A stretch of 32,000 nt of DNA from Erysipelothrix inopinata (GCF_014396165.1 NZ_CP060715.1:270001-302000), one strand, 5' to 3'. Numbered from the stretch's first letter, positions 8,325-32,000 are shown. The notes: generated from the sequence alone by a model not told the origin. A program made the numbers and translations.

Positions 8325-10349
8325 TTAATCGTGGTACAAGTACCATTTCTTAATCCAAGGAAGGTTCTTCCACCATGTTTTAAGTTTTGGCATTACCCAG
8401 TAATCAAGACTTAATGTATTACCACCGAATAAGATTGCGATTCCTGCGAATAACATCCACATTGTATGGAGGTAAAGTCCTGTAGTCATCATGAACATTA
8501 ATTGTAATCCAACAGAGATTGCTCCGAAGAATGTTGTGAATAGACCTGCAATTAATGCAAGACCAATAACGATTTCTAATACAACAACCATTGCTTGCAT
8601 GAAGATTTGCATACCGTTACTTGATAAGATTACTGTATTTACAAACCAGTTCATCAATGGAACATTTAGTTTAAATGCAAAGTCAGTTAATTTCGCTGCT
8701 TCCAGTGTTGTTCCTGAAACTAAGATTGTTTGGAATAACCAGAAGTTCCAGTTCATTAATACTGTACCTGCTGCTGCTGCTCCACCTGTTGCTGCGCCTG
8801 TTGCCCCCGCTACCGCTTCTGCTGCGGCTCCAGTTGCTCCAGCTACTGCTTCTGCTGCTGCACCTGCTGCACCAGCTTGTGCTGCTGCTCCAGTTGTTAC
8901 GCCAAGAAGTCCGTCATACCAAGCTTGTGCTCCACCAAAGAATTTTTCTAATTGAGGAGTTCCTGATAACCAACCTTCTTGAACTTTCTTAACACCTTCA
9001 AATAACCAAACCATACCCAACCAAACTCGGATAGGGAATAACATAAAGCTTGGTGTACGGTTTGAGAAGTTACCACCCACAAAGCTACGTTTGTTACGGA
9101 TTGTAAAGATTTCATGTTTTAAGTAGCTGAATACTTTATTCCAGCCTAGAACTTGTACAAAGTAAACACAGTTCATCATATGTTTTGCAAACATTGCAAA
9201 GAATGACCATAAGTTAAATTCAACTTTACCAAGTTTAATATTTGCAGTTCCCCAACGACCACCGATACATACCATTGTACCGTGGAAGCTTGGTGTATAT
9301 GCTTTAAGATTTCCTGTTCCGCGAATTGATTCCGCAATGTTGTGAGCAACAAGTCCACCACTTTGTTCAGCGTTTTCAACCATTTGTGGTACAGGACGTT
9401 CTTCACCTTCTAATACGAAGTATGTGTTATCACCAACAACATAAACGTCTTCACGACCTTTTGCACGTAAGTATTGATCTGTTTCAATACGTCCTGCTCG
9501 TTGTGATGCTTCAAGTTCACTACCTGATTTGGATGTGATATCAGCACTTTCGATACCTGCAGTCCAAATAACTGTATGAACACTGTTTTCTTCAATTTTT
9601 CCATCAATATCTAAAGTAATTGATGAATCTGTAACTTTAATAACTTTAGCGTTTAGTTTGATTTCAACACCCATTTTTTCTAAACGGTTTTGAACTTTAT
9701 TCGCTAATTTCTCAGGTAAAGTCATAACTGTACGTGGCATTGCATCCACTTCTACAAGTGTAACTTCACTTGGTTCGATTGAGTATTTACTACATAATAC
9801 AGGAACGTATTCTGCAAGTTCACCCATCATTTCAACACCTGTAAATCCAGCTCCTACAACATAGAATGTAAGCAAGAAACGACGTTTTTCTTCATCAGGT
9901 TCTTGTGCAGCTTGTACAAATGTATTTGTAATATGTTGATGTAGATTTACGGCATCATCATATGACCACAATGTATGTGTGTGTTCTTTTGCACCTTCAA
10001 TACCAAAGTAAGTTGGTTTTGATCCTGCAGCAATGACAATATAATCATATTCATAGCTTTCGTGTGAACCCAATACAACCTTCTTATCAAAATCAATACT
10101 TTCAACGTTATCAAGTTTAACGTTAACATTACGACCTGCAAAAATTTTCGCTAAATCCATACGGATTGAGTACTCATCAACACGACCAGCAGCAACTTCA
10201 TGAAGTTCTGTTAACATCGTGCTAAATGGATTACGATCAATAATCGTAATATCTACAGCGTCTTGTTCTTTTTTAAATTTCTTAGCAAGTTTCTTCGCGG
10301 CTAAAATCCCGGAATAACCAGCCCCAACAACGACTACTTTCTTTCCCAT
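8325..10349 (-). CDS. Type II NADH dehydrogenase (NDH-2) fused to a C-terminal multi-pass membrane domain (FLEET Ndh2-like)
   Basis: ATG at 10349 (MGKKVVVVGAGYSG) lies behind AAGGAG; the ORF-track start at 10376 is TTG. Two Rossmann GxGxxG motifs are present (VGAGYSG, VGAGFTG), plus VYVVGDN. The C-terminal approximately 230 aa contain several TM helices and an Ala/Gly-rich loop. Confidence 0.85.
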   Translation of the reverse strand: MGKKVVVVGAGYSGILAAKKLAKKFKKEQDAVDITIIDRNPFSTMLTELHEVAAGRVDEYSIRMDLAKIFAGRNVNVKLDNVESIDFDKKVVLGSHESYEYDYIVIAAGSKPTYFGIEGAKEHTHTLWSYDDAVNLHQHITNTFVQAAQEPDEEKRRFLLTFYVVGAGFTGVEMMGELAEYVPVLCSKYSIEPSEVTLVEVDAMPRTVMTLPEKLANKVQNRLEKMGVEIKLNAKVIKVTDSSITLDIDGKIEENSVHTVIWTAGIESADITSKSGSELEASQRAGRIETDQYLRAKGREDVYVVGDNTYFVLEGEERPVPQMVENAEQSGGLVAHNIAESIRGTGNLKAYTPSFHGTMVCIGGRWGTANIKLGKVEFNLWSFFAMFAKHMMNCVYFVQVLGWNKVFSYLKHEIFTIRNKRSFVGGNFSNRTPSFMLFPIRVWLGMVWLFEGVKKVQEGWLSGTPQLEKFFGGAQAWYDGLLGVTTGAAAQAGAAGAAAEAVAGATGAAAEAVAGATGAATGGAAAAGTVLMNWNFWLFQTILVSGTTLEAAKLTDFAFKLNVPLMNWFVNTVILSSNGMQIFMQAMVVVLEIVIGLALIAGLFTTFFGAISVGLQLMFMMTTGLYLHTMWMLFAGIAILFGGNTLSLDYWVMPKLKTWWKNLPWIKKWYLYHD
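8763..8897 (-). repeat. GC-rich Ala/Gly/Thr low-complexity insert in the NDH-2 membrane domain, with a 2 x 33-nt tandem repeat at 8799-8864
   Basis: It encodes TTGAAAQAGAAGAAAEAVAGATGAAAEAVAGATGAATGGAAAAGT. The unit GAAAEAVAGAT occurs twice, back to back. Confidence 0.9.
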
Positions 10350-10530: not shown

Positions 10531-12936
10531 TCAAACTGTAGGTTTCACTACTAAGTTCACAATTTTGTTTTTAATGACTATTTCTTTCACAACTGTCATT
10601 CCTTCAAGATTCTTTTGAACTTGAGGTTGTTCATAAACAAGTGCTTTCAATGCAGCTTCTTCAAGATTATTTGCGGCATTAAATTTAGCACGTACTTTAC
10701 CATTAATTTGAACGACAATTTCAACCTCATCAAGGACTAGTTTTGATTCATCGTATTGTGGCCAGGCAACGTAGCTAATACCTTCTTTACCTGTTAACAT
10801 CATGTAAAGTTCTTCGCCTAAGTGAGGTGCAAAACATGCTAACATCTTAACAAATCCAATCGCATATTCTCTGTAAACTGTTTCCACTTTATATGCTTCA
10901 TTTACAAAAATCATCAATTGAGAAATAGCAGTATTCATGCCAAATCCCTCAATGTCATGAGTTACTTTTTTAACGGTTTGGTTATAGACAAAGTCAAGGC
11001 TTCCATCATTTGTATCTACAATCTTATTTTCATCTTCAAGTAAACGCCACACACGATCTAACCATTTTCGAATTCCGTCAAGACCCCGTGTACTCCAGCC
11101 AATCGCGCCATCCAATGGTCCCATAAACATTTCATAAACACGTAACGCATCTGCACCATGACTCATAACGATATCATCTGGATTCACAACATTACCACGT
11201 GATTTGCTCATTTTTTCATTATTTTCGCCAAGAATCATACCTTGGTGGAACAACTTTTTGAATGGTTCTTTTGTAGTTACAACACCCAAATCGTAAAGCA
11301 CTTTATGCCAGAATCTTGCATAGAGTAAGTGAAGAACCGCATGTTCGGATCCACCGACGTAAAGGTCCACATTCATCCAATGTTCAAGTAATTCAGGATC
11401 TCCAATTGCTTCTTCATTGAATGGGTCGATATAACGTAAGTAGTACCAGCATGAACCAGCCCATTGTGGCATGGTATTCGTTTCGCGTACTCCTGTGCTA
11501 CCATCTGCAAACGTGACATTCAACCAATCTCCTGCATTCGCAAGTGGAGAGCGTCCATCACCCGCAGGTTTATAGTTATCAATTGCAGGTAATTCTAATG
11601 GCAAGTCTTCAAGGTCAACCGTACGCATTGTGCCGTCTTCCATATGAACGATAGGAATTGGTTCTCCCCAATATCTTTGACGTGAGAATAACCAGTCGCG
11701 AAGTTTATAGGTCACCTTAGGAGCACCATAACCATTTTCTTGTAACCATGCATTCATTGTTTCGATAGCTTCTTCTTTTCCTTTTCCATCTAGGAAATCA
11801 GAGTTAATGTGAACGCCATCGCCTACGAATGCTTCTTCCGTAATGTCGCCACCTTCAAGTACAGGAACAATTTCTAAATCATATTTTTTCGCAAATTCGT
11901 AGTCACGTTCATCATGTGCAGGTACTGCCATGATGGCACCACTACCATATGCTGCGAGAACATAATCAGCAATAAAGATTGGAACACGTTTTTTGTTTAC
12001 AGGATTAATAGCATAAGCCCCTGTGAAAACGCCTGTTTTTTCTTTATTTAGTTCTGTTCTTTCAAGATCTGATTTATGAGCCACCGCATCGACATACTTA
12101 TCGACTGCTTCTTTATTTTCAGCAGTAGTAATTTTCGATACAAATGGATGTTCTGGTGCTAAGACACAGTATGTGTTTCCAAATAAAGTATCTGCACGCG
12201 TTGTAAATACTGTAAACTCAAGATCGTGATTATCCACTTTGAAGATAACATCTGATCCAACTGATTTTCCAATCCAGTTTATTTGCATTTCTTTTGTTGA
12301 TTCTGGCCAGTCTACAAGCTCAAGATCTTCAAGTAAACGTTCAGCATATGCGGTAATTTTTAGTACCCATTGACGCATAGGAACTCGAATTACATCAAAT
12401 CCTCCAACCTCAGATTTACCATTAATCACTTCTTCATTCGCGAGTACGGTTCCAAGCTCAGGACAGAAGTTTACGGGTTTTTCATCAATATATGCTAATC
12501 CCATGTCATAGAGTTGTGTAAAGATCCATTGTGTCCACTTGTAGAATTGCGGATCAGTTGTCGATATTTCACGCGACCAATCATACGATAATCCTAACGC
12601 CTTAATTTGATCAGTAAAGTGCGCAATATTTTGCTTTGTAAATCCATCAGGATGATTTCCTGTCTTTAATGCAAACTGCTCTGCGGGTAATCCAAACGCA
12701 TCCCATCCCATCGGATGAAGAACATTAAACCCGTTCATTCGTTTGTATCTTGCAATGACATCAGTCGCTGTATAGCCACGTGGATGTCCAACATGAAGTC
12801 CGTTTCCTGAAGGATACGGGAACATATCTAAGATATAGTATTTAGGAATCGACATATTATGAACATCTGTCTTAAATGTTTCATTCTCATCCCAGTATTT
12901 TTGCCATTTTTTTTCTATTTTTAAATGATTATACAT
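10531..12936 (-). CDS. leuS: Leucine--tRNA ligase
   Basis: ATG at 12936 ([15 protein letters not shown]) lies behind AAGGAGG. Class I motifs are present: HVGH (in [12 protein letters not shown]) and KMSKS. The length of approximately 801 aa is typical of LeuS. Confidence 0.95.
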
Positions 12937-12953
12937 ATGAGCCTCCTTGATAA

Positions 12954-13173
12954 TAAAAAAAGTACCTGCATAAAGGACGAATGTCTCGCGGTACCACCTT
13001 AATTCCAACCAAATATTGGTTGACTCTCAAACCCGTAACGAGGGAAACGAAATTTCCTAATTAGTTCAGAAACTTAGCTCATGGATGAGTTCAATATGTT
13101 TCTTCTATCGACTTGCACCAACCGTCGATTCTCTTAGAGAAGATTAATATCTACTAGTTCCATTCATTGCTTT
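12954..13173 (-). promoter_or_regulatory. T-box riboswitch leader, Leu specifier (CUC)
   Basis: The minus strand carries the conserved T-box AATTAAGGTGGTACCGCG (12987-13004). The specifier-loop context is GAA-CUC-A, with CUC at 13087-13089. The terminator helix GTACC...GGTAC (12962-12994) is followed by a U-run (12954-12961), directly upstream of leuS. Confidence 0.85.
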
Positions 13174-13179
13174 GATTTA

Positions 13180-22484: not shown

Positions 22485-22512
22485 TTGCATTTCAACTCGA
22501 TTGATGTATAAT
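22485..22512 (+). promoter_or_regulatory. Sigma-A-type promoter of the P-type ATPase gene
   Basis: -35 is TTGCAT (22485-22490), the spacer is 16 nt and -10 is TATAAT (22507-22512). Confidence 0.6.
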
Positions 22513-22518
22513 GAACGC

Positions 22519-22534
22519 ATGAACAAGTATTCAT
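22519..22534. promoter_or_regulatory. Candidate ArsR/SmtB-type (CzrA-like) operator
   Basis: ATGAACAAGTATTCAT contains TGAA-N6-TTCA and lies just downstream of the -10. As I recall it, this is one base different from the staphylococcal CzrA operator core TGAACAAATATTCA. Confidence 0.35.
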
Positions 22535-22551
22535 ATATTAGGAGGTATCAT

Positions 22552-24528
22552 ATGAGTCATAATCATTCAACACATGAACACAATCATGATAAACACGATC
22601 ACAACCATCATCATGATCACGATCACAGCCACGAGCATGGTCACAGTCATGATCACGATCACGGTGCATTACCAGTCTATTTATTCTTTGGAGGTCTTGG
22701 TGCATTCTTAATTGCTCTTCTAGCACCTCTAAGTCCAACTATTAAAGCAGTGCTTTATATTGTAGCAATGTTAGCATCGGGATATCACATTATTATTGAA
22801 GGTGTTACCGATACAATTAGCAGTACTAAAGAAAAAGGTAAGTTTACACCTAATGTACATATCTTAATGTCACTCGCTGCAGTGGGTGCATCAATCATTG
22901 GAAACTTTGAGGAAGGTGCATTACTAATTCTTATCTTTGCTGGTGCTCACTTCTTAGAACACTATGCAGAAGATCGCAGTAAACGTGAAATTACGAGTCT
23001 TTTAAACCTGAACCCTACCGAAGCACGTCGTCTTAAAGATGATGGAACCACAGAAACAGTTCAAGTTACTGATTTACAAATTGGCGATCGTCTACAAGTT
23101 TTAAACGGCGACCAAATACCTACTGATGGTGTTATCATCGAAGGATATAGTTCTATTGATGAATCTTCAATCAATGGTGAAAGTATTCCTCGCGAAAAAT
23201 CAGTCGGAGATGAAGTATTCGGAAGTACTATGAATGGTACTGGAAGCTTCGTTATGGAAGTGACTAAAGATAGTAGCGAAACACTTTTCGCTAAGATTAT
23301 TGAACTTGTAAATCAATCACAATCAAATTTATCACGTACCGCTACTAAGATTCAAAAATTAGAGCCAACATACGTTACAGCTGTCTTAATCATTGTTCCT
23401 ATCTTTATTCTTTTAGGTCCTGTCATCTTTGGATGGTCATGGTATCTCAGTTTCTACCGTGGTATGGTATTCTTAACTGTTGCATCTCCTTGTGCACTTG
23501 CTGCAGCCGCAGTACCTGCAACATTATCCGCAATTTCAAATCTTGCACGTCAAGGTGTACTCTTCAAGGGAGGATCATTTTTATCCAACCTGTCAGATGT
23601 TAAAGCAGTTGCATTCGATAAAACCGGAACACTTACGAATGGAAAACCTGTTGTAACTGATTCCTACTTTGAATCTCATTTATCACAAGATCAAATTCAA
23701 GCATATAAAGATATCATCGTTGCCATGGAAAAAACTGCAAACCATCCATTAGCTGATGCAATTATCAAAGGATTCCCAACGAACGAATCTTTAAAATTAG
23801 ATGTAGAAAATGAAATTGGTAAAGGATTAACTTCAACTTACAATAACAAGCAATATCAAATTGGAAAGCAAGCACTCTTCACCATTACAAATGAAGATAT
23901 GATTGCGAAAAGTGAAGCCTTTGCTAAAGAAGGAAATACTGTCGTTTACTTCGCTGAAGATGGTGTTGTATTAGGAATGATCGCTATGATGGATATTCCA
24001 AATGACTACGCTAAAGCTGTAATTGAATACTTACATACTCAAAACATCCATACTGTAATGATTACAGGTGATGCCGAAGTAACAGGCCAAGCAGTTGCTA
24101 AACAATTAGGAATTGACGAAGTAATTGGTAATGTAATGCCTGAAAACAAAGCAGCAATCGTAACACAACTCCAAGAAAAACACGGCGTTGTAGCCATGTT
24201 AGGTGATGGAGTTAACGATGCTCCTGCACTTGTTAAAGCAGATATTGGATTTGCAATGGGTGATGGTACAGATATTGCTATTGATGTTGCAGATGCAGTT
24301 CTCATGAAAAATGACTTAACTAAATTCGCTTATGCACATAAAGTATCCAAGAAGTTAAATAGAATTGTATGGGAAAATGTTATCTTCTCAATGTTCATCG
24401 TTGCACTACTTGTTGTACTTAACGTACTCGGTAAGATGTCCTTACCACTTGGAGTCATTGCTCACGAAGGAAGCACACTCGTGGTTCTCTTCAATGGACT
24501 GAGACTCTTAAAGAAAATTAATGAATAA
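22552..24528 (+). CDS. P1B-type heavy-metal-translocating ATPase with a His-rich N-terminus (P1B-4-like signatures)
   Basis: ATG at 22552 lies behind AGGAGG. The N-terminus is HNHSTHEHNHDKHDHNHHHDHDHSHEHGHSHDHDHG. TM motifs are SPC (VASPCAL) and HEGST. Catalytic motifs DKTGTLT, TGD and GDGVNDAP are present. Confidence 0.9.
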   Translation: MSHNHSTHEHNHDKHDHNHHHDHDHSHEHGHSHDHDHGALPVYLFFGGLGAFLIALLAPLSPTIKAVLYIVAMLASGYHIIIEGVTDTISSTKEKGKFTPNVHILMSLAAVGASIIGNFEEGALLILIFAGAHFLEHYAEDRSKREITSLLNLNPTEARRLKDDGTTETVQVTDLQIGDRLQVLNGDQIPTDGVIIEGYSSIDESSINGESIPREKSVGDEVFGSTMNGTGSFVMEVTKDSSETLFAKIIELVNQSQSNLSRTATKIQKLEPTYVTAVLIIVPIFILLGPVIFGWSWYLSFYRGMVFLTVASPCALAAAAVPATLSAISNLARQGVLFKGGSFLSNLSDVKAVAFDKTGTLTNGKPVVTDSYFESHLSQDQIQAYKDIIVAMEKTANHPLADAIIKGFPTNESLKLDVENEIGKGLTSTYNNKQYQIGKQALFTITNEDMIAKSEAFAKEGNTVVYFAEDGVVLGMIAMMDIPNDYAKAVIEYLHTQNIHTVMITGDAEVTGQAVAKQLGIDEVIGNVMPENKAAIVTQLQEKHGVVAMLGDGVNDAPALVKADIGFAMGDGTDIAIDVADAVLMKNDLTKFAYAHKVSKKLNRIVWENVIFSMFIVALLVVLNVLGKMSLPLGVIAHEGSTLVVLFNGLRLLKKINE

Positions 24529-24895: not shown

Positions 24896-25429
24896 TTATA
24901 CGGATTTAATTACCTTACCAACGCCGGTACCGATAAATCCAATACCAATCCATAGAACTAAGAAACTTTCTGCTTCTTGAGGATTAAAGAGCAAGCTTGC
25001 TCCGTAAACAATTAATAATACATCTAATATAATCATAACAATACGTGACCATCCCTTTTGGAAATGCACAACATATTGAAGTTGAACTGCACTATCAACA
25101 ATAATCCAGAAAACCAATAAGTAACTTAGCACTAATGTGTTGTTGATGAAATCACCAAATAAGAACATTAATCCAAGTAAGAGTAAACAGATACCTTCAA
25201 GAAAACTACCCGACCGCACTTCATCATTCTCTCTATTTTTAAATGATGAAAGTGTTGCAAGTATCCCCATGATGGTAACAGTCCATCCCATTGCAAACGA
25301 AAGCGTCGACAATGTTGTTGCTGGATGTTGAATCATCAAAAATCCAAGAACTGTATAAACAAGTCCTGTACAAATATAGACGATTTTTTTCCACAAACTA
25401 ACATGTCCCACTTCATACTGAGTATTCAT
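24896..25429 (-). CDS. HdeD/DUF308-like six-TM membrane protein
   Basis: AAGGAG RBS. The protein has repeated pairs of TM helices with small-residue spacing, and its 177-aa size is typical of the HdeD family. The assignment rests on architecture. Confidence 0.55.
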   Translation of the reverse strand: MNTQYEVGHVSLWKKIVYICTGLVYTVLGFLMIQHPATTLSTLSFAMGWTVTIMGILATLSSFKNRENDEVRSGSFLEGICLLLLGLMFLFGDFINNTLVLSYLLVFWIIVDSAVQLQYVVHFQKGWSRIVMIILDVLLIVYGASLLFNPQEAESFLVLWIGIGFIGTGVGKVIKSV

Positions 25430-25540: not shown

Positions 25541-26566
25541 CTATTTCGTTTCTTCGAGAACAATTTCATTAAATAGCTTTGTAATTTTTTTATCCTGGAG
25601 GTGTCTTCCAATCATAACAATTTTAGTTTCTCTAGCATCAGAATTCCATTTACGTCCCATTTCTGTTTTAAATGCCATATTAACACCTTGAAGAACGACT
25701 TGGTAATCAAAGTTATGAATACTAATAATCCCCTTGTATCTCATAAGATCTTCGCCATATTCTCCAATTATTAAGTTAATCCATGTTGAAAGTTTATGTT
25801 CATCAAGTGGCTTGTCAGTCACAATCGATAAAGTATCTACTCCAGTATGGTGGTGATCGTGATTATGGTCATGTCCATGATGATGGTGATGTTCACGTTC
25901 AACCATGGCATCGATATCTTCCTCTACACGATGTATTTCACCTGAGGCACGATCAAATAAATTCAACCCCACTACATCTTCAAACTTCACGGTATCTAGA
26001 TTAAGTACTTCGACTGCTATTAATGGATTAATATTTTTAATATGTGTTTCTACACGTTCTAATTCATCATCGGCAACCTCTTCCGATTTAGTAATAAATG
26101 CTTGATCTGCATAAGCAATTTGTTCACGTGTTTCTACAAATTCGTGCATTTGCTTAACACCATTTACCGCATCAACCAAAGTGATAATACTATCAATTGA
26201 TAGTTGTTCGCTCAGACGTGGTGTCCGTAAAACTGTTTGTGCAATAGGACTTGGCTCTGCTAAACCACTGGTTTCAATAATGATACGATCGATTTCAAGA
26301 CCCTCTTTTTCTCGAGCGTCCAAAATACCATAAAACATTTCAACTAAATCATCCCTCAAAATACAACACATACAACCACTGTTAATTTGATAGATTCTTT
26401 CCTCTTCATTCACAAGCACTAATTCATGATCAATGCCCATATCTCCATATTCATTCACAATCACGACGATATTTTCATCTTGATGGTTTTTCATAATTTT
26501 ATTGAGTAATGTTGTTTTCCCCGCACCCAAGAATCCTGTAACAATAGTAACTGGAATTGGTTTCAT
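25541..26566 (-). CDS. COG0523 (CobW/YciC/ZigA-type) metallochaperone GTPase with a His-rich insert
   Basis: P-loop GFLGAGKTTLLN, metal motif CMCC (CxCC) and His stretch EREHHHHHGHDHNHDHHH are present. Confidence 0.9.
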   Translation of the reverse strand: MKPIPVTIVTGFLGAGKTTLLNKIMKNHQDENIVVIVNEYGDMGIDHELVLVNEEERIYQINSGCMCCILRDDLVEMFYGILDAREKEGLEIDRIIIETSGLAEPSPIAQTVLRTPRLSEQLSIDSIITLVDAVNGVKQMHEFVETREQIAYADQAFITKSEEVADDELERVETHIKNINPLIAVEVLNLDTVKFEDVVGLNLFDRASGEIHRVEEDIDAMVEREHHHHHGHDHNHDHHHTGVDTLSIVTDKPLDEHKLSTWINLIIGEYGEDLMRYKGIISIHNFDYQVVLQGVNMAFKTEMGRKWNSDARETKIVMIGRHLQDKKITKLFNEIVLEETK

Positions 26567-27290: not shown

Positions 27291-27298
27291 TATCACTA
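27291..27298. repeat. Left 8-bp target-site duplication TATCACTA
   Basis: It is identical to 28643-28650 and immediately abuts the IS terminal repeat. Confidence 0.85.
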
Positions 27299-28642
27299 GG
27301 TAGTATAAAATATTTTGTGTAAACGTCTTGCGACGTGAAATAGAAAAAGGAAGTCATATCTTGTAGAATAAAGTTACTAGACAACATTCAAAAGGAGACT
27401 TCCCATGACTAATTTTAACACAGAACTTTATACTGCACTAGCCCAAGGAATATCATTGGATACTTTCATCAGAAGTGAGTTAGAAATTGCGATGAATCAA
27501 TTACTCCAAACAGAGCTGACTGTATTTTTAGACTATGAGCGATATGATCCAATTGGCTACAATAGTGGTAATTCTAGAAACGGAAACTATACTCGAACTG
27601 TTAAAACAAAGTATGGTGAAGTATGCCTTACCATACCACGTGATCGCAATGGTGATTTTAATCAACAAACCATTCCGCCTTACAAACGTCAGACTGATGA
27701 TTTAGAAACTACCATTCTTCAACTCTATTCTAAAGGCATCACCACTTCTGAAATTGCCGATTTAATTGAAAAAATGTACGGACATGCTTACACGCCACAA
27801 ACAGTTTCTTATATAACTCAAGCCATTGAAACTTCTGTTGATGAATTTCATAAACGATTACTTTCCAAGCGCTACCTTGCGGTTTATGGTGACTCAACTT
27901 ATCTAAATGTACGACGGGATTCTGTTTCTAAAGAAGCACTACATATTCTTATCGGCATCACTCCAGAAGGATATAAAGAAGTTTTAGATTATCGAATCTA
28001 TCCACAAGAATCAGCTGATAATTATCGTGAGATGCTTAAGGACATACAAATGCGTGGTTGTGAAGAAGTTTTGTTGTTTATCACTGATGGACTAACAGGT
28101 ATTCGAGATGCCTGTTTAGAAGTGTATCCGAAAGCAATGCACCAAACGTGTTGGGTGCATTTACAGAGAAACGTTTCACGCTTGGTGCGAGCAAAAGATC
28201 GTAAAGAAATTTTAGAACAATTGAAACCTGTTTATCAGGCAACTGAAAAATCAGTAGCGATCGACTTGCTGGAAAACTTCAAAGCATCGGTTAAGAAACG
28301 ATATCCGAAGGTTGTAGCTATGTTTGATAAAAACAAAAGTTTGTTTGAATTTTTAGATTTTCCAAGACAAATTCAGAGAAGTTTATATACAACAAACTTA
28401 ATTGAAGGATTCAATAAGCATCTAAAGCGGTATACTCGTCGCAAAGAACAATTTCCTAATGAAGAGTCACTCGACCGTTTTGTATGCTCTCAAGTGATTG
28501 AATACAATCACAAAGGCATTCGTAGGATTCATAAAGGATTTGATATAGTACAGTCTGAAATTGAAACATTATTTGAAGAAAAATACCATTAATAATTTTC
28601 TTCTACAAGAAACGATGTTTACACAAACTTCTTGACGCTACC
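27299..28642 (+). mobile_element. IS256-family insertion sequence, 1344 bp, apparently intact
   Basis: The terminal inverted repeats are GGTAGTATAAAATATTTTGTGTAAAC and, as the reverse complement of the right end, GGTAGCGTCAAGAAGTTTGTGTAAAC (20/26 identical, ungapped). A single transposase ORF and 8-bp direct repeats flank the element. Confidence 0.9.
27405..28592 (+). CDS. IS256-family (Mutator-type) transposase
   Basis: AAAGGAGA RBS. At 395 aa it has the typical family layout, with the CWVHLQRN motif region and the D...D...E spacing. Confidence 0.9.
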   Translation: MTNFNTELYTALAQGISLDTFIRSELEIAMNQLLQTELTVFLDYERYDPIGYNSGNSRNGNYTRTVKTKYGEVCLTIPRDRNGDFNQQTIPPYKRQTDDLETTILQLYSKGITTSEIADLIEKMYGHAYTPQTVSYITQAIETSVDEFHKRLLSKRYLAVYGDSTYLNVRRDSVSKEALHILIGITPEGYKEVLDYRIYPQESADNYREMLKDIQMRGCEEVLLFITDGLTGIRDACLEVYPKAMHQTCWVHLQRNVSRLVRAKDRKEILEQLKPVYQATEKSVAIDLLENFKASVKKRYPKVVAMFDKNKSLFEFLDFPRQIQRSLYTTNLIEGFNKHLKRYTRRKEQFPNEESLDRFVCSQVIEYNHKGIRRIHKGFDIVQSEIETLFEEKYH

Positions 28643-28650
28643 TATCACTA
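28643..28650. repeat. Right 8-bp target-site duplication TATCACTA
   Basis: It is identical to 27291-27298. Confidence 0.85.
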
Positions 28651-28746: not shown

Positions 28747-28779
28747 AAGAAAAAAGCCTCATTTTTTAAGATGAGGCTT
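28747..28779 (-). terminator. Intrinsic terminator after the LURP-one-like gene
   Basis: The minus strand reads AAAGCCTCA-(10 nt)-TGAGGCTTT, followed by TTTTCTT. Confidence 0.8.
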
Positions 28780-28804
28780 TCATTAATATTTGTATTGGCT
28801 AATC

Positions 28805-29317
28805 TTATTGTGCTGAGGTTGAGCTCGATGAAGAATTATGACTTGAAGAACGATCTTTCTCGATTTCATTATCGACAACAATTGCGACACATAGTGCAAG
28901 TAATTGATACTTTTCATCAAGTATGTTCAATTCATAGCTATCACCCCATGTAAACCAATGTTTACGAAGCGACATGACAGGTGCTTTCCCATCTACTATC
29001 GAGTAGTTGTGTGACATGTAGTCACCTTTCAACTTCCAGTTTGTTCCTTCGATTTGGAATTTTTGTTTGAACATTGTGAAGTTTCGTTTGATGACAACGC
29101 TTGGTTGGCCTTCAATTGTAATCTTGTAATGAGCCATAATTTTCAACATTTGTCTCTCAATAGTTGCTACTTTTTTACCCGATTGATCGGTAATCGTAAA
29201 TTTCTTAGGAATTCGCATAAAACTTCCCTTAACCCAATAAACATCTTCATTGAATTCATTACGAACTGTGAATGATTCACCGATTGTAAAAACTTTTTGT
29301 TTGATATATAGTTTCAT
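28805..29317 (-). CDS. LURP-one-related / YxjI-like (tubby C-terminal-like fold) protein with a Ser-rich tail
   Basis: AAAGGAG RBS. The N-terminus MKLYIKQKVFTIGESFTVRNEFNEDVYWVKG and the repeating beta-hairpin pattern are typical of the family. The C-terminus is SSSHNSSSSSTSAQ. Confidence 0.7.
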   Translation of the reverse strand: MKLYIKQKVFTIGESFTVRNEFNEDVYWVKGSFMRIPKKFTITDQSGKKVATIERQMLKIMAHYKITIEGQPSVVIKRNFTMFKQKFQIEGTNWKLKGDYMSHNYSIVDGKAPVMSLRKHWFTWGDSYELNILDEKYQLLALCVAIVVDNEIEKDRSSSHNSSSSSTSAQ

Positions 29318-29338
29318 TTTTGAATCTCCTTTTAAACT

Positions 29339-29347
29339 ATTATATCA
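29339..29347 (-). promoter_or_regulatory. Extended -10 element (TGaTATAAT) upstream of the LURP-one-like gene
   Basis: The minus strand reads TGATATAAT, about 20 nt upstream of the ATG at 29317. The -35 is weak. Confidence 0.45.
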
Positions 29348-29374
29348 CTGTGACAGGATGTCTTTGATATCTTT

Positions 29375-31426
29375 TTAATTATTATCTAAGAGATTTTTTA
29401 CAAGTGATTCTGGAACAACGTCATAGCGAACTAATGTTTCCTGGTAACTACCACTACCCTGAGTCATCGAACGCAAATCAGCAACATATTTTTTCACTTC
29501 AACTTTAGGTACTTCTGCTTGAATCAATTGAAGTTGGTTTTCAAGAGCATCAACGCTTAGGATAACACCACGTCTTTTATTTAAATCTCCCATAATTGTA
29601 CCCGTAAAGGATTCGGGTACGGTAATCTCAAGTAAAACAATGGGTTCTAAAAGTTGAACTGTCGCTTTCTCCATAGCATCAAGATATGCCAAACGAGCAG
29701 CCTGCTTAAAGGCAATCTCTTTGGAATCAACATCATGATATTTACCATCTACAAGTGTTGCTTTGACACCAACCACTTTATACCCTGCTAGCACGCCTTT
29801 AACCATTGCTTCACGAAGTCCTTGTTCTACGGAGCTAAAGAATTGTTTTGGAACTGCACCACCGACGACACGCGTTTCGTAAACCATATCCTCGCAATCC
29901 CAAGGTTCAAACTCGATAAAGACATGACCAAACTGACCAGCCCCTCCCGTTTGTTTCTTATGTCTACCCTCACCGGTTACTTTATTTCTAATTGTTTCGC
30001 GGAAGGCAACTTTTGGTTCCGTTACATTCACAGTTACACCATATTTATCTTTAAGTTTTGTAATGAGTGAATCCAGGTGTTGATCTCCCAATCCATATAG
30101 GATCTGTTCCAATGTTTCAGGATTTTTTTCAAAACGCGCACCACAATCCTCTTCCAGAACTTTACTCAAAGCCATGCTAAGTTTGTCTTCATCTTTCTTT
30201 GTTTCAGGTTGAATCGTAACACCCAATAATGGTTGCGGAATATCGGGACTATCATAAATTATTTTACAATCCGATGCTGCAAGCGTATCGAACGTTTTAG
30301 TGCTTTGAAGTTTCGTTACCGCTCCAATATCTCCGGAAAATAATTTACCAACTCCTATTTGATATTTACCATTGATACTAAACACTTGGTTAATAGTTTC
30401 TGTTTCTTGTTGATTATTATTTGTTACTTCAGAATCAGCGCTGAGTACCCCACTCATTACTTTTAAGTAACTAATCTTTCCTACAAAGGGGTCAACAATA
30501 GTTTTAAATACTTGTGCACTAAATACTTCATCTTCTTGAGTTCGCAGGGTAATTTCATTTCCTTTTCGATCCTTACCCGTTACGGTTCCTTTTTCTTGAT
30601 AACTTGGAAAGTACTCTGTAATGAGATCAAGGAGGCGACGCATCCCAATCCCTGCATTGGCACTTCCACAATAAACAGGACGGATATCTCCGCTTCGAAC
30701 ACCAAGAGAAACACCTTTCAAAATATCCTCTTCTGATAAGTTTCCCTTATCAAAATATGTTTCCATCAACTCATCATCAGTCATTGCAACTGCTTCACAA
30801 ATTTCTTCCCAATGAATTGCTACTTGATCGGCATATTCTTCAGGAACTTCATGAGGTTTTTCAGGATGATCGTAGTACCATACCTTCTTACTTAATAAAT
30901 TAATACTTCCGATAACAACACCTTTTTCTCGAATTGGTATCTCAAATGCAATGACACTTTTTCCGAATGTTTCTCTTAACGTCTCATAGGCTGTGTGGAA
31001 ACTAACATTTTCATCATCCATTTTATTGACGAAGAAAATAGTGGGTTTGTTTTCTGATTCAACCCAACGAAATGCGGACTTCGTGCCCTCATCCACACCA
31101 TTTTTACCATCAACTACAATTAAGACATTATCCCCAACACTCAGTCCCGATAAAGTTTCCGCTACAAAATCTGCATATCCAGGTGTATCAATACAGTTAA
31201 TTTTACAGTCTTGCCACTCAATTGGTACCATCTTTAAAGATAACGTTTGACCCCTTTTTATTTCTTGGGGTTCAAAGTCAATTGAAGATTGACCACTCTC
31301 TGCTGAGACAATTCGATCTATTTGTTTAGCTTCTAACATCATGGATTGAATCACTGAACTCTTACCACTTCCGTTATGTCCCAGTACTGCTAGGTTTCTT
31401 ACATTCTCGCTTCTATAGTCTTTCAT
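29375..31426 (-). CDS. Elongation factor G paralogue with DTPGY in place of DTPGH
   Basis: G1 is GHNGSGKS, switch I is RGQT, G3 is DTPGYADF, G4 is NKMD and G5 is GSA. The domain IV strings KKQTGGAGQFGHV and DGKYHDVDSKEIAFKQAA are EF-G-like. The protein is 683 aa. Confidence 0.85.
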   Translation of the reverse strand: MKDYRSENVRNLAVLGHNGSGKSSVIQSMMLEAKQIDRIVSAESGQSSIDFEPQEIKRGQTLSLKMVPIEWQDCKINCIDTPGYADFVAETLSGLSVGDNVLIVVDGKNGVDEGTKSAFRWVESENKPTIFFVNKMDDENVSFHTAYETLRETFGKSVIAFEIPIREKGVVIGSINLLSKKVWYYDHPEKPHEVPEEYADQVAIHWEEICEAVAMTDDELMETYFDKGNLSEEDILKGVSLGVRSGDIRPVYCGSANAGIGMRRLLDLITEYFPSYQEKGTVTGKDRKGNEITLRTQEDEVFSAQVFKTIVDPFVGKISYLKVMSGVLSADSEVTNNNQQETETINQVFSINGKYQIGVGKLFSGDIGAVTKLQSTKTFDTLAASDCKIIYDSPDIPQPLLGVTIQPETKKDEDKLSMALSKVLEEDCGARFEKNPETLEQILYGLGDQHLDSLITKLKDKYGVTVNVTEPKVAFRETIRNKVTGEGRHKKQTGGAGQFGHVFIEFEPWDCEDMVYETRVVGGAVPKQFFSSVEQGLREAMVKGVLAGYKVVGVKATLVDGKYHDVDSKEIAFKQAARLAYLDAMEKATVQLLEPIVLLEITVPESFTGTIMGDLNKRRGVILSVDALENQLQLIQAEVPKVEVKKYVADLRSMTQGSGSYQETLVRYDVVPESLVKNLLDNN

Positions 31427-31441
31427 ATTAAGCCATCCTCA

Positions 31442-32000
31442 CTAAACTAAATACTGTTTCAATGTTTCGAAATCATGCTGTCTTACATAATGAATCGCCA
31501 AACGATCCTCGTCATCTTTAATTGTAATATCAGCATCCGAATCTACAAGAAATTTAATCAATTCTTCATAACCTGAGTATGCTGCTCTCATTAACGCTGT
31601 GCAGCCATTAGCGTCACGCTCATTAACGTTTGCTTGATGACGAACAAGATACTTGATAATGTCCATTTGGTACGCCAGCGTTGCTTCCATGAGCGCTGTA
31701 CGACCTAACGTATCTTTAGCATTAACATCGGCGCCATTTTCAACAAGTAACTTAACGATATCTAAATGACCTAAGAAACTTGCTCTCATTAATGCAGTGC
31801 GACCTTTTTCATCTTGAAGATTAACATTTGCACCTGCTTTAATTAATAAAGCAACAATATCAAGATGGCCCTTCTTAGCTGCACTCATTAAAGCATCTTT
31901 ACCAAAAATATCGAGTGCATTTACATCGGCATTATGATCAATTAAAAATCTTACGATATTTGTATGGCCACGTTTTGCACTTCTCATTAATGCGGTACGA
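31442..32000 (-). CDS. Ankyrin-repeat protein (5' end lies outside the window)
   Basis: At least five tandem 33-aa units fit xGxTALMxAxxxGHLDIVKLLxxxGAxVNxxD. The frame stays open to the window edge (RTALMRSAKRGH...). The stop lies 15 nt upstream of the EF-G-like ATG. Confidence 0.85.
   Translation of the reverse strand, partial: RTALMRSAKRGHTNIVRFLIDHNADVNALDIFGKDALMSAAKKGHLDIVALLIKAGANVNLQDEKGRTALMRASFLGHLDIVKLLVENGADVNAKDTLGRTALMEATLAYQMDIIKYLVRHQANVNERDANGCTALMRAAYSGYEELIKFLVDSDADITIKDDEDRLAIHYVRQHDFETLKQYLV

What the first reader, a model, noticed from the sequence alone, without database searches (positions are those of the whole stretch)
28805..32000. Ankyrin-repeat protein / catalytic-His-less EF-G paralogue / tubby-like LURP-one protein: an uncharacterised cassette
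**Sequence:**
- The ankyrin-repeat gene has at least 5 repeats and runs off the window.
- It stops 15 nt before the EF-G-like ATG, and the SD GAGGATGG sits in that gap. The two genes are therefore almost certainly co-transcribed and possibly translationally coupled.
- No terminator follows the EF-G-like gene. The LURP-one/YxjI-like gene starts 57 nt later and has its own TGnTATAAT.
- The only intrinsic terminator of the block is at 28747-28779.

**Established:** Ankyrin repeats are protein-protein interaction scaffolds and are uncommon in Bacillota housekeeping operons. I know of no described functional pairing of an ankyrin protein with a translational GTPase paralogue.

**Inference:** The ankyrin protein could recruit or regulate a ribosome-binding, hydrolysis-impaired EF-G. 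The role could be ribosome hibernation or protection, stress-dependent translation control, or a decoy or immunity function.
Basis: partly seen in the sequence, partly recalled or inferred. Interest (0 to 1): 0.7.

Follow-up and report, generated by a model that had tools for sequence, protein, structure and literature searches.

The report
Ankyrin partner of alternative elongation factor
In one family of gut and animal-associated bacteria (Erysipelotrichaceae), a second copy of translation elongation factor G that lacks its catalytic histidine is always encoded just after a small ankyrin-repeat protein and behind a translation-sensing switch, which points to an undescribed helper protein for this alternative factor.

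Summary
The sequence observation holds. On the minus strand an ankyrin-repeat gene stops 15 nt before a 683-aa EF-G-like gene, and a LURP-one (LOR) gene follows 57 nt later.

- **EF-G-like protein:** it is not an orphan. It belongs to the known EF-G2 (EFG II) family. The motifs GHxGxGK and DTPGY are family traits, also present in the solved T. thermophilus and M. smegmatis EF-G2 structures.
- **Ankyrin/EF-G2 pair (new):** it is a strictly conserved two-gene unit. Every ankyrin orthologue with room downstream is followed by EF-G2 (86 of 86 loci, gaps mostly 8-36 nt). Flanking genes differ and the two proteins diverge in step (r = 0.91). None of 78 Clostridia-type EF-G2 loci has the ankyrin gene.
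- **LOR gene:** it occurs only in this genome and is not part of the unit.
- **Control region (just beyond the window end):**
  - a promoter overlapped by a cre-like operator;
  - a 19-44-codon leader ORF whose stop codon abuts an intrinsic terminator (47 of 50 leaders against 3.6% of shuffles; 0 of 72 ankyrin-less loci);
  - no RNA antiterminator.

**Reading:** an energy-limitation-induced alternative translocase with a dedicated ankyrin cofactor. Physical binding between the two proteins is inferred, not shown.

The parts
31442..32000 (-). 3' 559 nt of the ankyrin-repeat gene. The full gene is 222 aa; its ATG lies 110 nt beyond the window end, at L001 9317.
   Evidence: - Pfam Ank families: 5 repeats, E about 1e-45.
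- Full length read from L001.
- Orthologues of 222-223 aa sit directly upstream of EF-G2 in 86 of 86 loci.
- The canonical ANK binding-groove positions (R38, K46/R47, K71, K79/K80, R104, R137, C170, Y178) are at least 95% conserved in 74 orthologues; F112 is conserved at a lower level (60-79%).
31427..31441 (-). 15-nt intergenic spacer holding the EF-G2 Shine-Dalgarno sequence (GAGGATGG).
   Evidence: - Sequence read directly.
- The equivalent gaps in 67 distinct loci are mostly 8-36 nt, with the commonest lengths 9-14 nt; the two genes are never fused.
29375..31426 (-). EF-G2-family (EFG II) elongation factor G paralogue, 683 aa.
   Evidence: - Five EF-G domains.
- NCBIfam NF009381 scores 803.5 bits against a cut-off of 583. 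It falls below the cut-offs for canonical EF-G, the EF-G2 equivalog, Bacteroides EF-G2 and Tet protection proteins.
- The G domain is closest to B. thetaiotaomicron EF-G2 (7uvp/8dmf).
31358..31381 (-). G1/P-loop GHNGSGKS (residues 16-23). It starts with Gly-His rather than the Ala-His of canonical EF-G.
   Evidence: -.
- Margus 2011 gives GhxxxGKT as the EFG II G1 motif.
31175..31189 (-). G3/switch II DTPGY (residues 80-84). Tyr84 takes the place of the catalytic His.
   Evidence: - Sequence read directly.
- 114 of the 120 closest homologues have D[TS]PGY or D[TS]PGC here; the motif was not found in the other 6.
- None of 89 locus homologues has His at this position.
- The same DTPGYADF occurs in M. 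smegmatis EF-G2 (9k0z) and DAPGYGDF in T. thermophilus EF-G-2 (1wdt).
29318..29374 (-). 57-nt spacer between EF-G2 and the LOR gene. It has no terminator and holds the extended -10 TGaTATAAT at 29339-29347.
   Evidence: Read-through from EF-G2 into the LOR gene is possible in this genome only.
28805..29317 (-). LURP-one-related (LOR, PF04525) gene, 170 aa. It is a local neighbour, not part of the conserved unit.
   Evidence: - Pfam 45.9 bits against a cut-off of 24.5.
- tblastn finds it in no other locus among 89 ankyrin/EF-G2 loci and 78 Clostridia-type loci.
28752..28781 (-). Intrinsic (bidirectional) terminator that ends the block.
   Evidence: Terminator scan: 11-12 bp stem followed by a T-run.
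27297..28644 (+). IS256/Mutator-family insertion sequence that bounds the block (transposase at 27405-28592).
   Evidence: - PF00872, E = 2e-106.
- 31-nt imperfect terminal inverted repeats at 27297-27327 and 28614-28644.
- The L001 contig ends inside this element.

Best explanation
The core of the finding is a conserved two-gene operon of the Erysipelotrichaceae, made of an ankyrin-repeat gene followed by fusA2.

**The two products**
- The second gene encodes an EF-G2-family translocase paralogue. Its GTP-binding motifs are intact, its catalytic His is replaced by Tyr, and its domain IV tip is EF-G-like.
- The first gene encodes a 222-aa cytosolic protein made only of ankyrin repeats. Its ligand-binding groove is nearly invariant.
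- I infer that the ankyrin protein is a dedicated cofactor of EF-G2. It would bind either EF-G2 or the ribosome-bound complex and adapt a factor that hydrolyses GTP weakly or not at all, for example by aiding loading or release.

**Two layers of control, both just upstream of the window end**
1. The sigma-A promoter is overlapped by a cre-like LacI-family operator, which suggests catabolite repression.
2. A short leader ORF ends at the foot of an intrinsic terminator, and no RNA antiterminator exists. Read-through should therefore need a ribosome sitting on the last leader codons just as RNA polymerase reaches the U-tract.

**Inferred function**
I infer that the operon turns on when carbon or energy is limiting and ribosomes keep up with a slowed polymerase. 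It would then supply slow, GTP-sparing or protective EF-G2 activity, by analogy with Bacteroides and mycobacterial EF-G2.

**Shown versus inferred**
- Shown: family membership, the conserved pairing, and the leader/terminator/operator architecture.
- Inferred: physical binding, the inducing signal and the biochemical activity.
- The LOR gene is an unrelated neighbour.
For: **Family**
- Five EF-G domains. NF009381 scores 803 bits against a cut-off of 583.
- G1 is GHxGxGK and G3 is DTPGY in 114 of the 120 closest homologues. None of 89 locus homologues has His.
- The same motifs occur in the solved EF-G2 structures 1wdt, 9k0z and 7uvp. They match the EFG II description of Margus 2011.

**Pairing**
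- The ankyrin gene is directly upstream in 11 of 11 Erysipelotrichaceae loci reached from the EF-G side, each with different flanks.
- EF-G2 is directly downstream in 86 of 86 loci reached from the ankyrin side.
- Gaps are mostly 8-36 nt.
- Pairwise distances of the two proteins correlate (r = 0.91) and their mean divergence is equal, 0.356 against 0.360.
- None of 78 Clostridia-type loci has the ankyrin gene.

**Ankyrin groove**
- The positions used for target binding in ANK proteins are at least 95% conserved across 74 orthologues.

**Regulation**
- Promoter TTGAAA-16-TACAAT and terminator in L001.
- A terminator is present in 78 of 82 loci and a leader ORF with a Shine-Dalgarno sequence in 69 of 82. 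The stop codon lies within 12 nt of the stem base, and in about half it overlaps the first two stem bases.
- Leader ORFs occur in 47 of 50 native leaders against 3.6% of dinucleotide shuffles, and in 0 of 72 ankyrin-less EF-G2 loci.
- The terminator 5' arm pairs with upstream RNA less than in shuffles, 0.31 against 0.47, in 41 of 50 leaders.
- A hairpin sequestering the leader Shine-Dalgarno sequence and AUG has z < -1.64 in 20 of 50 leaders, including all close relatives of the window.
- The cre pattern is absent from the 32-kb window (0.16 expected). It sits at the same promoter position in L001, L083-L089 and others, 27 of 82 loci in total.

**Analogy**
- B. thetaiotaomicron fusA2 is induced 238-fold by carbon limitation and silenced by glucose (PMC10294740).
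Against: - No direct evidence shows that the ankyrin protein touches EF-G2.
- Residues specific to ankyrin-associated EF-G2 are scattered and form no patch.
- T. thermophilus EF-G-2 also carries Tyr yet is reported to be GTPase-active, so the activity here is open.
- The strict cre motif is limited to the window's clade (27 of 82 loci). It could serve any LacI-family regulator, and the presence of CcpA was not tested.
- The direction of the attenuator response is inferred from geometry only. Bacillota are reported to uncouple transcription from translation (my own knowledge), which would make ribosome-dependent read-through rare.
- The terminator stem is conserved in sequence with little covariation. 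That hints at an unidentified trans-acting reader.
- The presence of a canonical fusA in the same genome was not checked here.
Confidence: 0.55

Rival explanations
1. The two genes are co-expressed, but the ankyrin protein does not act on EF-G2. Its target would be the ribosome, canonical EF-G or another protein. For example, it could displace or inhibit EF-G1 or occupy the stalk or factor-binding site, so that EF-G2 gains access or ribosomes are parked.
For: - Strict operon linkage and a conserved, partly basic ANK groove (R/K at repeats 2-4) are equally compatible with an rRNA or ribosomal-protein target.
- No EF-G2 surface patch specific to ankyrin-associated proteins was found.
Against: - The ankyrin gene occurs only with this EF-G2 clade, and the two proteins diverge in lockstep at equal rates.
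- Gaps of mostly 8-36 nt with a Shine-Dalgarno sequence inside or just after the ankyrin gene favour matched amounts of the two products.
Confidence: 0.25
2. The operon is an antibiotic-inducible ribosome-protection or target-protection module. It would resemble Tet(M)/Tet(O) or FusB-type systems and be switched on when a drug stalls ribosomes on the leader peptide.
For: - Leader-peptide attenuators upstream of resistance genes, tet(M) among them, are classic in Bacillota (my own knowledge).
- The protein is an EF-G homologue, as ribosomal protection proteins are.
Against: - The Tet-protection model scores 301 bits against a cut-off of 775.
- The domain IV tip is EF-G-like (HKKQTGGAGQFGH).
- The leader peptides share no arrest motif, and there is no stall-released antiterminator RNA.
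- The pair is a vertically inherited core gene pair in varied chromosomal contexts, not on mobile elements.
- The cre-like operator points to carbon control.
Confidence: 0.08
3. One reading: a three-gene functional cassette of ankyrin, EF-G paralogue and LURP-one protein.
For: In this genome no terminator separates EF-G2 from the LOR gene, so read-through is possible.
Against: - The LOR gene is found next to EF-G2 in only 1 of 89 ankyrin/EF-G2 loci. Downstream genes differ everywhere else.
- It has its own extended -10 and Shine-Dalgarno sequence.
- An IS256-family element lies about 110 nt beyond its terminator, which suggests local rearrangement.
Confidence: 0.03
4. The adjacency has no functional meaning, and the leader ORF and terminator are incidental intergenic features.
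For: None beyond the absence of experiments.
Against: - 86 of 86 linkage across EF-G2 identities of 43-100%.
- Leader ORFs in 47 of 50 leaders against 3.6% of shuffles, and in 0 of 72 control loci.
Confidence: 0.02

Closest known systems
Bacteroides thetaiotaomicron EF-G2 (fusA2, BT2167; PDB 7uvp/8dmf; Han et al. 2023, EMBO J)
   Same: - An EF-G paralogue outside the str operon that lacks the catalytic His (DCPGS).
- It is the best PDB match for the G domain of the window protein, 163 bits against 152 for canonical EF-G.
- Its transcription is tied to carbon status: 238-fold induction on carbon limitation and silencing by glucose (PMC10294740). This parallels the cre-like operator found here.
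   Different: - The window protein scores only 511 bits against the cut-off of 1000 for the Bacteroides EF-G2 model.
- Over the full length it is closer to canonical EF-G, 472 against 384 bits.
- It is 683 aa against 718 aa, and the alignment to 7uvp breaks after about residue 510.
- The papers I could read mention no ankyrin partner and no leader attenuator for the Bacteroides gene. There, control is by the regulator BT4338/Cur.
Mycobacterium smegmatis EF-G2 (PDB 9k0z/9k10)
   Same: - An identical switch II sequence, DTPGYADF.
- His to Tyr, reported to abolish ribosome-dependent GTPase activity. The protein is described as a stress-specific factor (bioRxiv 10.64898/2026.05.25.727771).
   Different: - A different EFG II sub-group (Actinobacteria), with much lower overall similarity.
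- No ankyrin partner is reported.
Thermus thermophilus EF-G-2 (PDB 1wdt/2dy1)
   Same: The EFG II prototype, with GHAGSGKTT and DAPGYGDF.
   Different: - It is reported to retain GTPase and translocation activity.
- It scores 357 bits against the window protein, less than canonical EF-G does.
EFG II subfamily, Clostridia sub-subgroup (Margus, Remm and Tenson 2011, PMC3150367)
   Same: - G1 GhxxxGKT.
- The G2 motif RGITI relaxed to RxxSI. The window has RGQTL and the clade consensus is RGxSx.
- G3 DxPG and G4 NKxD are kept, and domain IV is the best-conserved domain.
   Different: That study reported no conserved gene context for EFG II. The ankyrin-linked Erysipelotrichaceae clade, at 52-75% identity to the window protein, is distinct from the Clostridia-type loci at 40-47%.
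Ribosome-occlusion attenuators such as E. coli pyrBI (my own knowledge)
   Same: A leader ORF translated up to or into an intrinsic terminator, so that a closely following ribosome rather than an alternative RNA fold prevents termination. Here, too, no antiterminator RNA is detectable.
   Different: - No membership is claimed. The signal sensed is unknown here (UTP in pyrBI).
- The host is a Bacillota lineage.
- A hairpin sequestering the Shine-Dalgarno sequence and AUG is added in many leaders.
Pseudomonas aeruginosa katB-ankB operon (my own knowledge)
   Same: A bacterial ankyrin-repeat protein co-transcribed with, and needed for full activity of, the enzyme encoded beside it. It is a precedent for a dedicated ANK helper.
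   Different: The partner there is a catalase, the location is periplasmic, and there is no link to translation.

Membership tests
EF-G2 / EFG II subfamily | Full five-domain EF-G architecture (G with G', II, III, IV, V). | tested here: met
   Pfam GTP_EFTU, EF-G_D2, EFG_III, EFG_IV and EFG_C are all above their cut-offs.
EF-G2 / EFG II subfamily | G1 begins Gly-His (GhxxxGKT) instead of the AHIDAGKT of EFG I. G3 DxPG, G4 NKxD and G5 GSA are retained. | tested here: met
   - The window protein has GHNGSGKS, DTPGY, NKMD and GSA.
- The motif definitions come from PMC3150367.
EF-G2 / EFG II subfamily | G2 consensus RGITI relaxed (RxxSI in the Clostridia sub-subgroup). | tested here: met
   The window has RGQTL and the clade consensus is RGxSx. 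The Thr/Ser is retained.
EF-G2 / EFG II subfamily | Catalytic switch II His absent. This is seen in all three solved EF-G2 proteins but is not part of the 2011 definition. | tested here: met
   Tyr84 in the window protein. None of 89 homologues has His. Solved examples: 1wdt DAPGY, 9k0z DTPGY, 7uvp DCPGS.
EF-G2 / EFG II subfamily | Encoded outside the str operon and accompanied by a canonical EFG I gene in the same genome. | tested here: inconclusive
   - The neighbours are not rpsL, rpsG or tuf.
- The rest of the genome could not be read, so the presence of fusA was not verified.
EF-G2 / EFG II subfamily | Curated NCBIfam models. | tested here: inconclusive
   - The window protein passes NF009381 (PRK12740.1-5, named 'elongation factor G'), 803.5 bits against 583.
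- It fails NF009377 ('EF-G-like protein EF-G2'), 547.9 against 890.
- It fails NF058620 (Bacteroides EF-G2), 511 against 1000.
EF-G2 / EFG II subfamily | Weak or absent ribosome-dependent GTPase activity with slow translocation. | not testable with these tools
   This needs biochemistry, and published members disagree: T. thermophilus EF-G-2 is reported active, B. thetaiotaomicron and M. smegmatis EF-G2 inactive.
Canonical EF-G (EFG I, fusA) | TIGR00484 equivalog score, catalytic His in DTPGH, and RGITI in G2. | tested here: not met
   556.8 bits against a cut-off of 659.4. The protein has Tyr instead of His and RGQTL instead of RGITI.
Tetracycline ribosomal protection proteins (Tet(M)/(O)/(Q)) | NF012153 equivalog score. 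| tested here: not met
   301 bits against a cut-off of 775.
Ankyrin-repeat proteins | Tandem 33-residue ANK repeats. | tested here: met
   - Pfam Ank, Ank_2 and Ank_4.
- The 33-residue register holds across the whole protein. TALM replaces the usual TPLH motif.
LURP-one-related / tubby-like (PF04525) | Pfam LOR domain above the gathering score. | tested here: met
   45.9 bits against a cut-off of 24.5, covering residues 3-147.
Leader-peptide transcription attenuator | A short ORF with a Shine-Dalgarno sequence, followed by an intrinsic terminator, ahead of the regulated gene. | tested here: met
   - 69 of 82 loci.
- 47 of 50 native leaders against 3.6% of shuffles.
- 0 of 72 control loci.
Leader-peptide transcription attenuator | An alternative antiterminator RNA that competes with the terminator (trp/erm type). 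| tested here: not met
   The terminator 5' arm is less paired with upstream RNA than in shuffles, 0.31 against 0.47. The system therefore works like the ribosome-occlusion type, not the trp/erm type.
cre / CcpA-type catabolite operator | A match to TGWNANCGNTNWCA placed over the core promoter. | tested here: met
   - TGTAATCGGTTACA at L001 9168-9181 overlaps the -10 TACAAT (9178-9183).
- No match occurs in the 32-kb window (0.16 expected).
- The motif sits at the same place in the window's clade.
cre / CcpA-type catabolite operator | Bound by CcpA-HPr(Ser-P), with the gene repressed by glucose. | not testable with these tools
   This needs ChIP or EMSA and expression data. Another LacI-family regulator could use the same palindrome.

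The most novel reading that the evidence does not exclude
The ankyrin protein is a dedicated trans-acting cofactor that completes a crippled translational GTPase. It would dock through its invariant Arg/Lys-rich groove on EF-G2 or on the EF-G2-ribosome complex. There it would either supply the missing catalytic or release function, acting as a protein GAP or dissociation factor, or lock EF-G2 on idle ribosomes as a hibernation clamp.

The attenuator would report how closely ribosomes follow RNA polymerase. Together these would form a self-contained sensor and effector for translation under energy limitation. No bacterial translation elongation factor paralogue is known to need a private protein partner.
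Probability: 0.15. Interest if true: 0.85.

Novelty: new variant of a known kind. Interest (0 to 1): 0.6.

Why it matters
EF-G2 paralogues are widespread, but their roles have been worked out only recently and in only two phyla. In Bacteroides EF-G2 supports GTP-free slow translation needed for gut colonisation, and in mycobacteria it is described as a stress-specific factor.

- **A strictly conserved partner.** It gives an immediate experimental handle on how a His-less EF-G is loaded on or released from the ribosome in Bacillota.
- **A precedent.** It would be the first case of a translation elongation factor paralogue with its own dedicated cofactor.
- **A new regulatory design.** The leader couples a catabolite operator to a ribosome-occlusion attenuator that has no antiterminator RNA. 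It could be used to ask whether, and when, transcription and translation are coupled in Bacillota.
- **Relevant hosts.** The host family includes Erysipelothrix pathogens and abundant gut Erysipelotrichaceae.

Tried and rejected
- **Co-folding the ankyrin protein with EF-G2.** I submitted them as one linker-joined chain. No interaction prediction was possible.
- **Search for ankyrin/EF-G fusions or distant partners.** I ran the 185-aa ankyrin fragment against the 1.84-billion-protein representative library. The top 150 hits were all giant generic ANK-repeat proteins of 700-6500 aa, which is uninformative.
- **Group-specific residue mapping.** I compared ankyrin-linked EF-G2 proteins (57) with ankyrin-less ones (78). 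The 17 group-specific positions are scattered over the G, G', II, III and IV domains, with no patch and one single-column indel.
- **RNAalifold on two sets of leaders.** It recovers only the terminator, because the leader ORFs are too diverged to align. The hairpin sequestering the Shine-Dalgarno sequence and AUG had to be tested per sequence against shuffles.
- **Rfam.** No family matches the leader, and only sub-threshold chance hits appear.
- **PADLOC.** There are only generic ANK and P-loop matches, with no defence-system signature.
- **An RNA antiterminator.** I looked for one and rejected it.
- **An attenuator as a general EF-G2 feature.** Rejected: 0 of 72 Clostridia-type loci have it.
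- **Han et al. 2023 (EMBO J).** The paper could not be read. Statements about it rest on papers that cite it or on my own memory, and are marked as such.

Full report
**1. What is in the window**

On the minus strand of 28752-32000 there are three ORFs.
- An ankyrin-repeat ORF enters from beyond the window end and stops at 31442-31444 (TAG).
- A 683-aa EF-G-like ORF (29375-31426) starts 15 nt later. The gap is TGAGGATGGCTTAAT and holds the Shine-Dalgarno sequence.
- A 170-aa LURP-one-related ORF (28805-29317) starts 57 nt after the EF-G stop. A TGaTATAAT extended -10 lies at 29339-29347.
- A strong bidirectional terminator follows at 28752-28781.
- No terminator-like site lies between EF-G and the LOR gene.

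The exact EF-G protein is on record in the NCBI assembly GCA_965139835.1 (locus L001). L001 matches the window over the shared 4712 bases at all but 4 positions, and all 4 lie in the IS element. I used L001 to read what lies past the window end. The conversion is window position = 41427 minus L001 position.

The complete ankyrin gene is 222 aa (L001 9317-9985). It has six 33-residue repeats plus a C-terminal cap, no signal peptide that I could see in its N-terminus, and no other domain.

**2. What the EF-G-like protein is**

- It has all five EF-G domains.
- It passes the NCBIfam subfamily model NF009381 (803.5 bits, cut-off 583). It fails the models for canonical EF-G (556.8 against 659.4), for 'EF-G-like protein EF-G2' (547.9 against 890), for Bacteroides EF-G2 (511 against 1000) and for tetracycline protection proteins (301 against 775).
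- Its nucleotide-binding motifs are intact: GHNGSGKS, a Thr in G2 (RGQTL), DTPG, NKMD and GSA. The catalytic switch II His is Tyr84.
- This is not a private defect.
  - 114 of the 120 closest database homologues carry D[TS]PGY or D[TS]PGC.
  - None of 89 homologues from fetched loci has His. The residues found are Y, F, L, D, T, S, N and K.
- The pattern matches the EFG II subfamily defined by Margus et al. 2011: G1 GhxxxGKT, G2 relaxed to RxxSI in the Clostridia sub-subgroup, and domain IV best conserved (PMC3150367; my own conservation counts).
- The three solved EF-G2 proteins show the same change.
  - T. thermophilus 1wdt has GHAGSGKTT and DAPGYGDF.
  - M. smegmatis 9k0z has DTPGYADF, identical to the window.
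  - B. thetaiotaomicron 7uvp/8dmf, deposited under the name TetQ, has DCPGS.
- The G domain of the window protein is closest to the B. thetaiotaomicron protein, 163 bits against 152 for canonical EF-G. The full length is closest to canonical EF-G, 472 bits.
- The domain IV tip (HKKQTGGAGQFGH) is EF-G-like, so contact with the decoding centre is plausible.

Whether the protein hydrolyses GTP cannot be read from the sequence.
- The M. smegmatis protein and an H88Y mutant of its EF-G1 are reported to be inactive.
- B. thetaiotaomicron EF-G2 is reported to translate without GTP hydrolysis.
- T. thermophilus EF-G-2 is reported to be active.

**3. The ankyrin gene is a fixed partner**

*Starting from EF-G.* A scan of one genome per species returned 80 loci.
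- The two Erysipelotrichaceae-type loci (52-54% EF-G identity) had an ankyrin orthologue directly upstream. The 78 Clostridia-type loci (40-47%) had none within 6 kb.
- Clustering of all neighbouring ORFs found no other tightly adjacent conserved partner.
- Six further Erysipelotrichaceae homologues (54-72% identity, including the complete genomes of Erysipelothrix sp. HDW6C and E. larvae) gave eight more loci. All had a 222-223-aa gene ending shortly before EF-G2, and their flanking genes differed widely.

*Starting from the ankyrin protein.*
- A metagenome scan returned 80 more loci.
- Over all 89 ankyrin loci, 86 have EF-G2 immediately downstream. The other 3 are contigs that end 2-133 nt after the ankyrin gene.
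- In 67 distinct junctions the gap is mostly 8-36 nt, with the commonest lengths 9-14 nt. The genes are never fused.

*Co-inheritance and conservation.*
- Pairwise distances of the two proteins across 47 loci correlate at r = 0.91. Mean divergence is equal, 0.356 against 0.360. The pair is therefore inherited together and is under similar constraint.
- Within the ankyrin protein, the positions that ANK proteins normally use to bind targets are conserved at 95% or more in 74 orthologues. These are the residue before the Thr of each repeat and the two residues before Gly-His: R38, K46/R47, K71, K79/K80, R104, R137, C170 and Y178. F112 is conserved at a lower level (60-79%). The outer helices vary.
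- That is the signature of a conserved ligand.

Which ligand it is remains open.

**4. The LOR gene is not part of the unit**

- It was found next to EF-G2 only in this genome.
- Everywhere else the downstream gene differs. Examples are a glycoside hydrolase, superoxide dismutase, a glycosyltransferase and a protease.
- Here it sits between EF-G2 and an IS256-family element (27297-28644, with imperfect 31-nt terminal repeats).
- Read-through from EF-G2 is possible in this strain, but the three-gene cassette is not a conserved entity.

**5. An unreported control region lies just past the window end**

In L001 the features are as follows.

| Feature | L001 position | Source |
|---|---|---|
| Promoter TTGAAA-16-TACAAT | 9156-9183 | |
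| cre-like palindrome TGTAATCGGTTACA, overlapping the -10 | 9168-9181 | |
| Shine-Dalgarno sequence and 22-codon ORF (MFNLIAFITDVGKHCVTIDDLS) | 9204-9272 | |
| Intrinsic terminator, starting at the base after the stop codon | 9271-9296 | |
| Ankyrin ATG | 9317 | |

The palindrome fits the cre consensus TGWNANCGNTNWCA. That pattern has no match in the 32-kb window, where 0.16 is expected.

Across 82 loci with at least 200 nt of upstream sequence:
- 78 have a terminator hairpin 20-75 nt before the ankyrin ATG.
- 69 have a leader ORF of 19-44 codons, preceded by a Shine-Dalgarno sequence, whose stop codon lies within 12 nt of the base of the stem.
- In about half, the TAA supplies the first two stem bases (TTTTAAGATGGAC...GTCCATCTTTTTT).

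Controls:
- The same detector scores 47 of 50 distinct native leaders, 3.6% of dinucleotide shuffles and 0 of 72 ankyrin-less EF-G2 loci.
- The leader peptides are unalignable. Where the frame differs, the same nucleotides are read differently. So the act of translating the leader matters, not its peptide product.

Further properties:
- There is no RNA antiterminator. With the 3' arm removed, the 5' arm pairs with upstream RNA less than in shuffled controls, 0.31 against 0.47, lower in 41 of 50 leaders.
- In the window's clade and some others the leader's own Shine-Dalgarno sequence and AUG are sequestered by a hairpin with codons 10-25. The variable bases covary, for example GAAC/GTTC, GCAC/GTGC and GGCC/GGCT. 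z is below -1.64 in 20 of 50 leaders, against 2.5 expected.
- The strict cre motif is present in 27 of 82 loci, including all of the window's close relatives. Elsewhere it is degenerate.
- Rfam has no family for this leader.
- Erysipelothrix sp. HDW6C has lost the leader ORF and terminator but keeps the promoter.

**6. How it most likely works**

*Shown:* the pairing, the family assignment and the regulatory architecture.

*Inferred:*
- The two genes are made from one transcript in matched amounts.
- The ankyrin protein is a private cofactor of EF-G2, either on or off the ribosome.
- The default state of the leader is termination, because nothing but a ribosome can keep the terminator from folding.
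  - A ribosome with the leader stop codon in its A site covers the whole 5' arm. I take the 12-15 nt downstream footprint from my own knowledge.
  - At closest approach, RNA polymerase would then be about 30 nt ahead, which places it on the U-tract.
  - Read-through should therefore report tight ribosome-polymerase coupling: prompt initiation before the sequestering hairpin closes, and translation keeping pace with transcription.
- With the cre-like operator, this suggests induction when carbon or energy is short and polymerase slows.
- This matches the carbon-starvation induction of Bacteroides fusA2 and the stress role proposed for mycobacterial EF-G2.
- The direction of the response is the weakest link, and the opposite logic is not excluded.

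**7. Comparison with what is known, and novelty**

- The protein is a member of the known EF-G2/EFG II kind. Within it, it forms a distinct Erysipelotrichaceae clade.
- Neither Margus et al., who looked at gene context, nor any paper found by full-text search reports an ankyrin partner.
- The attenuator works like ribosome-occlusion attenuators such as pyrBI (my own knowledge) but is not a described family.
- I rate the finding a new variant of a known kind.
  - The ankyrin partnership is real, strictly conserved and apparently undescribed. It also comes with an informative regulatory leader.

**8. Limits**

- There is no interaction prediction or measurement and no expression data.
- The genome's canonical fusA was not checked.
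- The taxonomy of the metagenomic loci was not determined.
- Han et al. 2023 was not readable.

Noticed in passing
L001 9271-9296 and the equivalent positions in L085-L169 (beyond the window end): The attenuator terminator stem is conserved in sequence (TTTTAAGATGGAC...GTCCATCTTTTTT, then GTTTGAA) across about 30 leaders whose ORFs cannot be aligned. There is little covariation. A plain terminator should drift, so something may read this sequence.
   Followed up: partly
L082 4160-4322 (Erysipelothrix sp. HDW6C, CP049861.1): This genome keeps the promoter and a one-mismatch cre (TGCAATCGGTTACA) but has lost the leader ORF and terminator upstream of the ankyrin gene. It may be a natural constitutive variant.
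   Followed up: partly
window 12970-13176 (-): A T-box leader (Rfam RF00230, 155 bits) lies directly upstream of a leucyl-tRNA synthetase gene at 10531-13008.
   Followed up: no
window 27297-28644: An IS256/Mutator-family insertion sequence with a 395-aa transposase and 31-nt imperfect terminal inverted repeats. The public contig L001 ends inside it, and the only 4 mismatches between window and contig lie here.
   Followed up: partly
window 25541-26566 (-): A CobW/COG0523-type GTPase with a His-rich insert (EREHHHHHGHDHNHDHHH), which looks like a zinc metallochaperone. Next to it are a DUF308 membrane protein (24896-25429) and, further on, a P-type ATPase (22501-24528).
   Followed up: no
window 31445-32000 and L001 9317-9982: The ankyrin repeats carry TALM(R/x)A in place of the usual TPLHxA motif in every repeat and every orthologue.
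   Followed up: partly
L001 8631-9080: In this genome a cold-shock-domain gene with its own terminator lies just upstream of the operon's promoter. So does a 49-aa ORF on the opposite strand, which appears hydrophobic from its reverse-strand sequence. A sub-threshold Rfam RT-9 hit overlaps the small ORF (31 bits against a gathering score of 46).
   Followed up: no
PDB entries 7uvp and 8dmf: The B. thetaiotaomicron EF-G2 structures are deposited under the molecule name 'Tetracycline resistance protein TetQ'. This can mislead annotation transfer.
   Followed up: no
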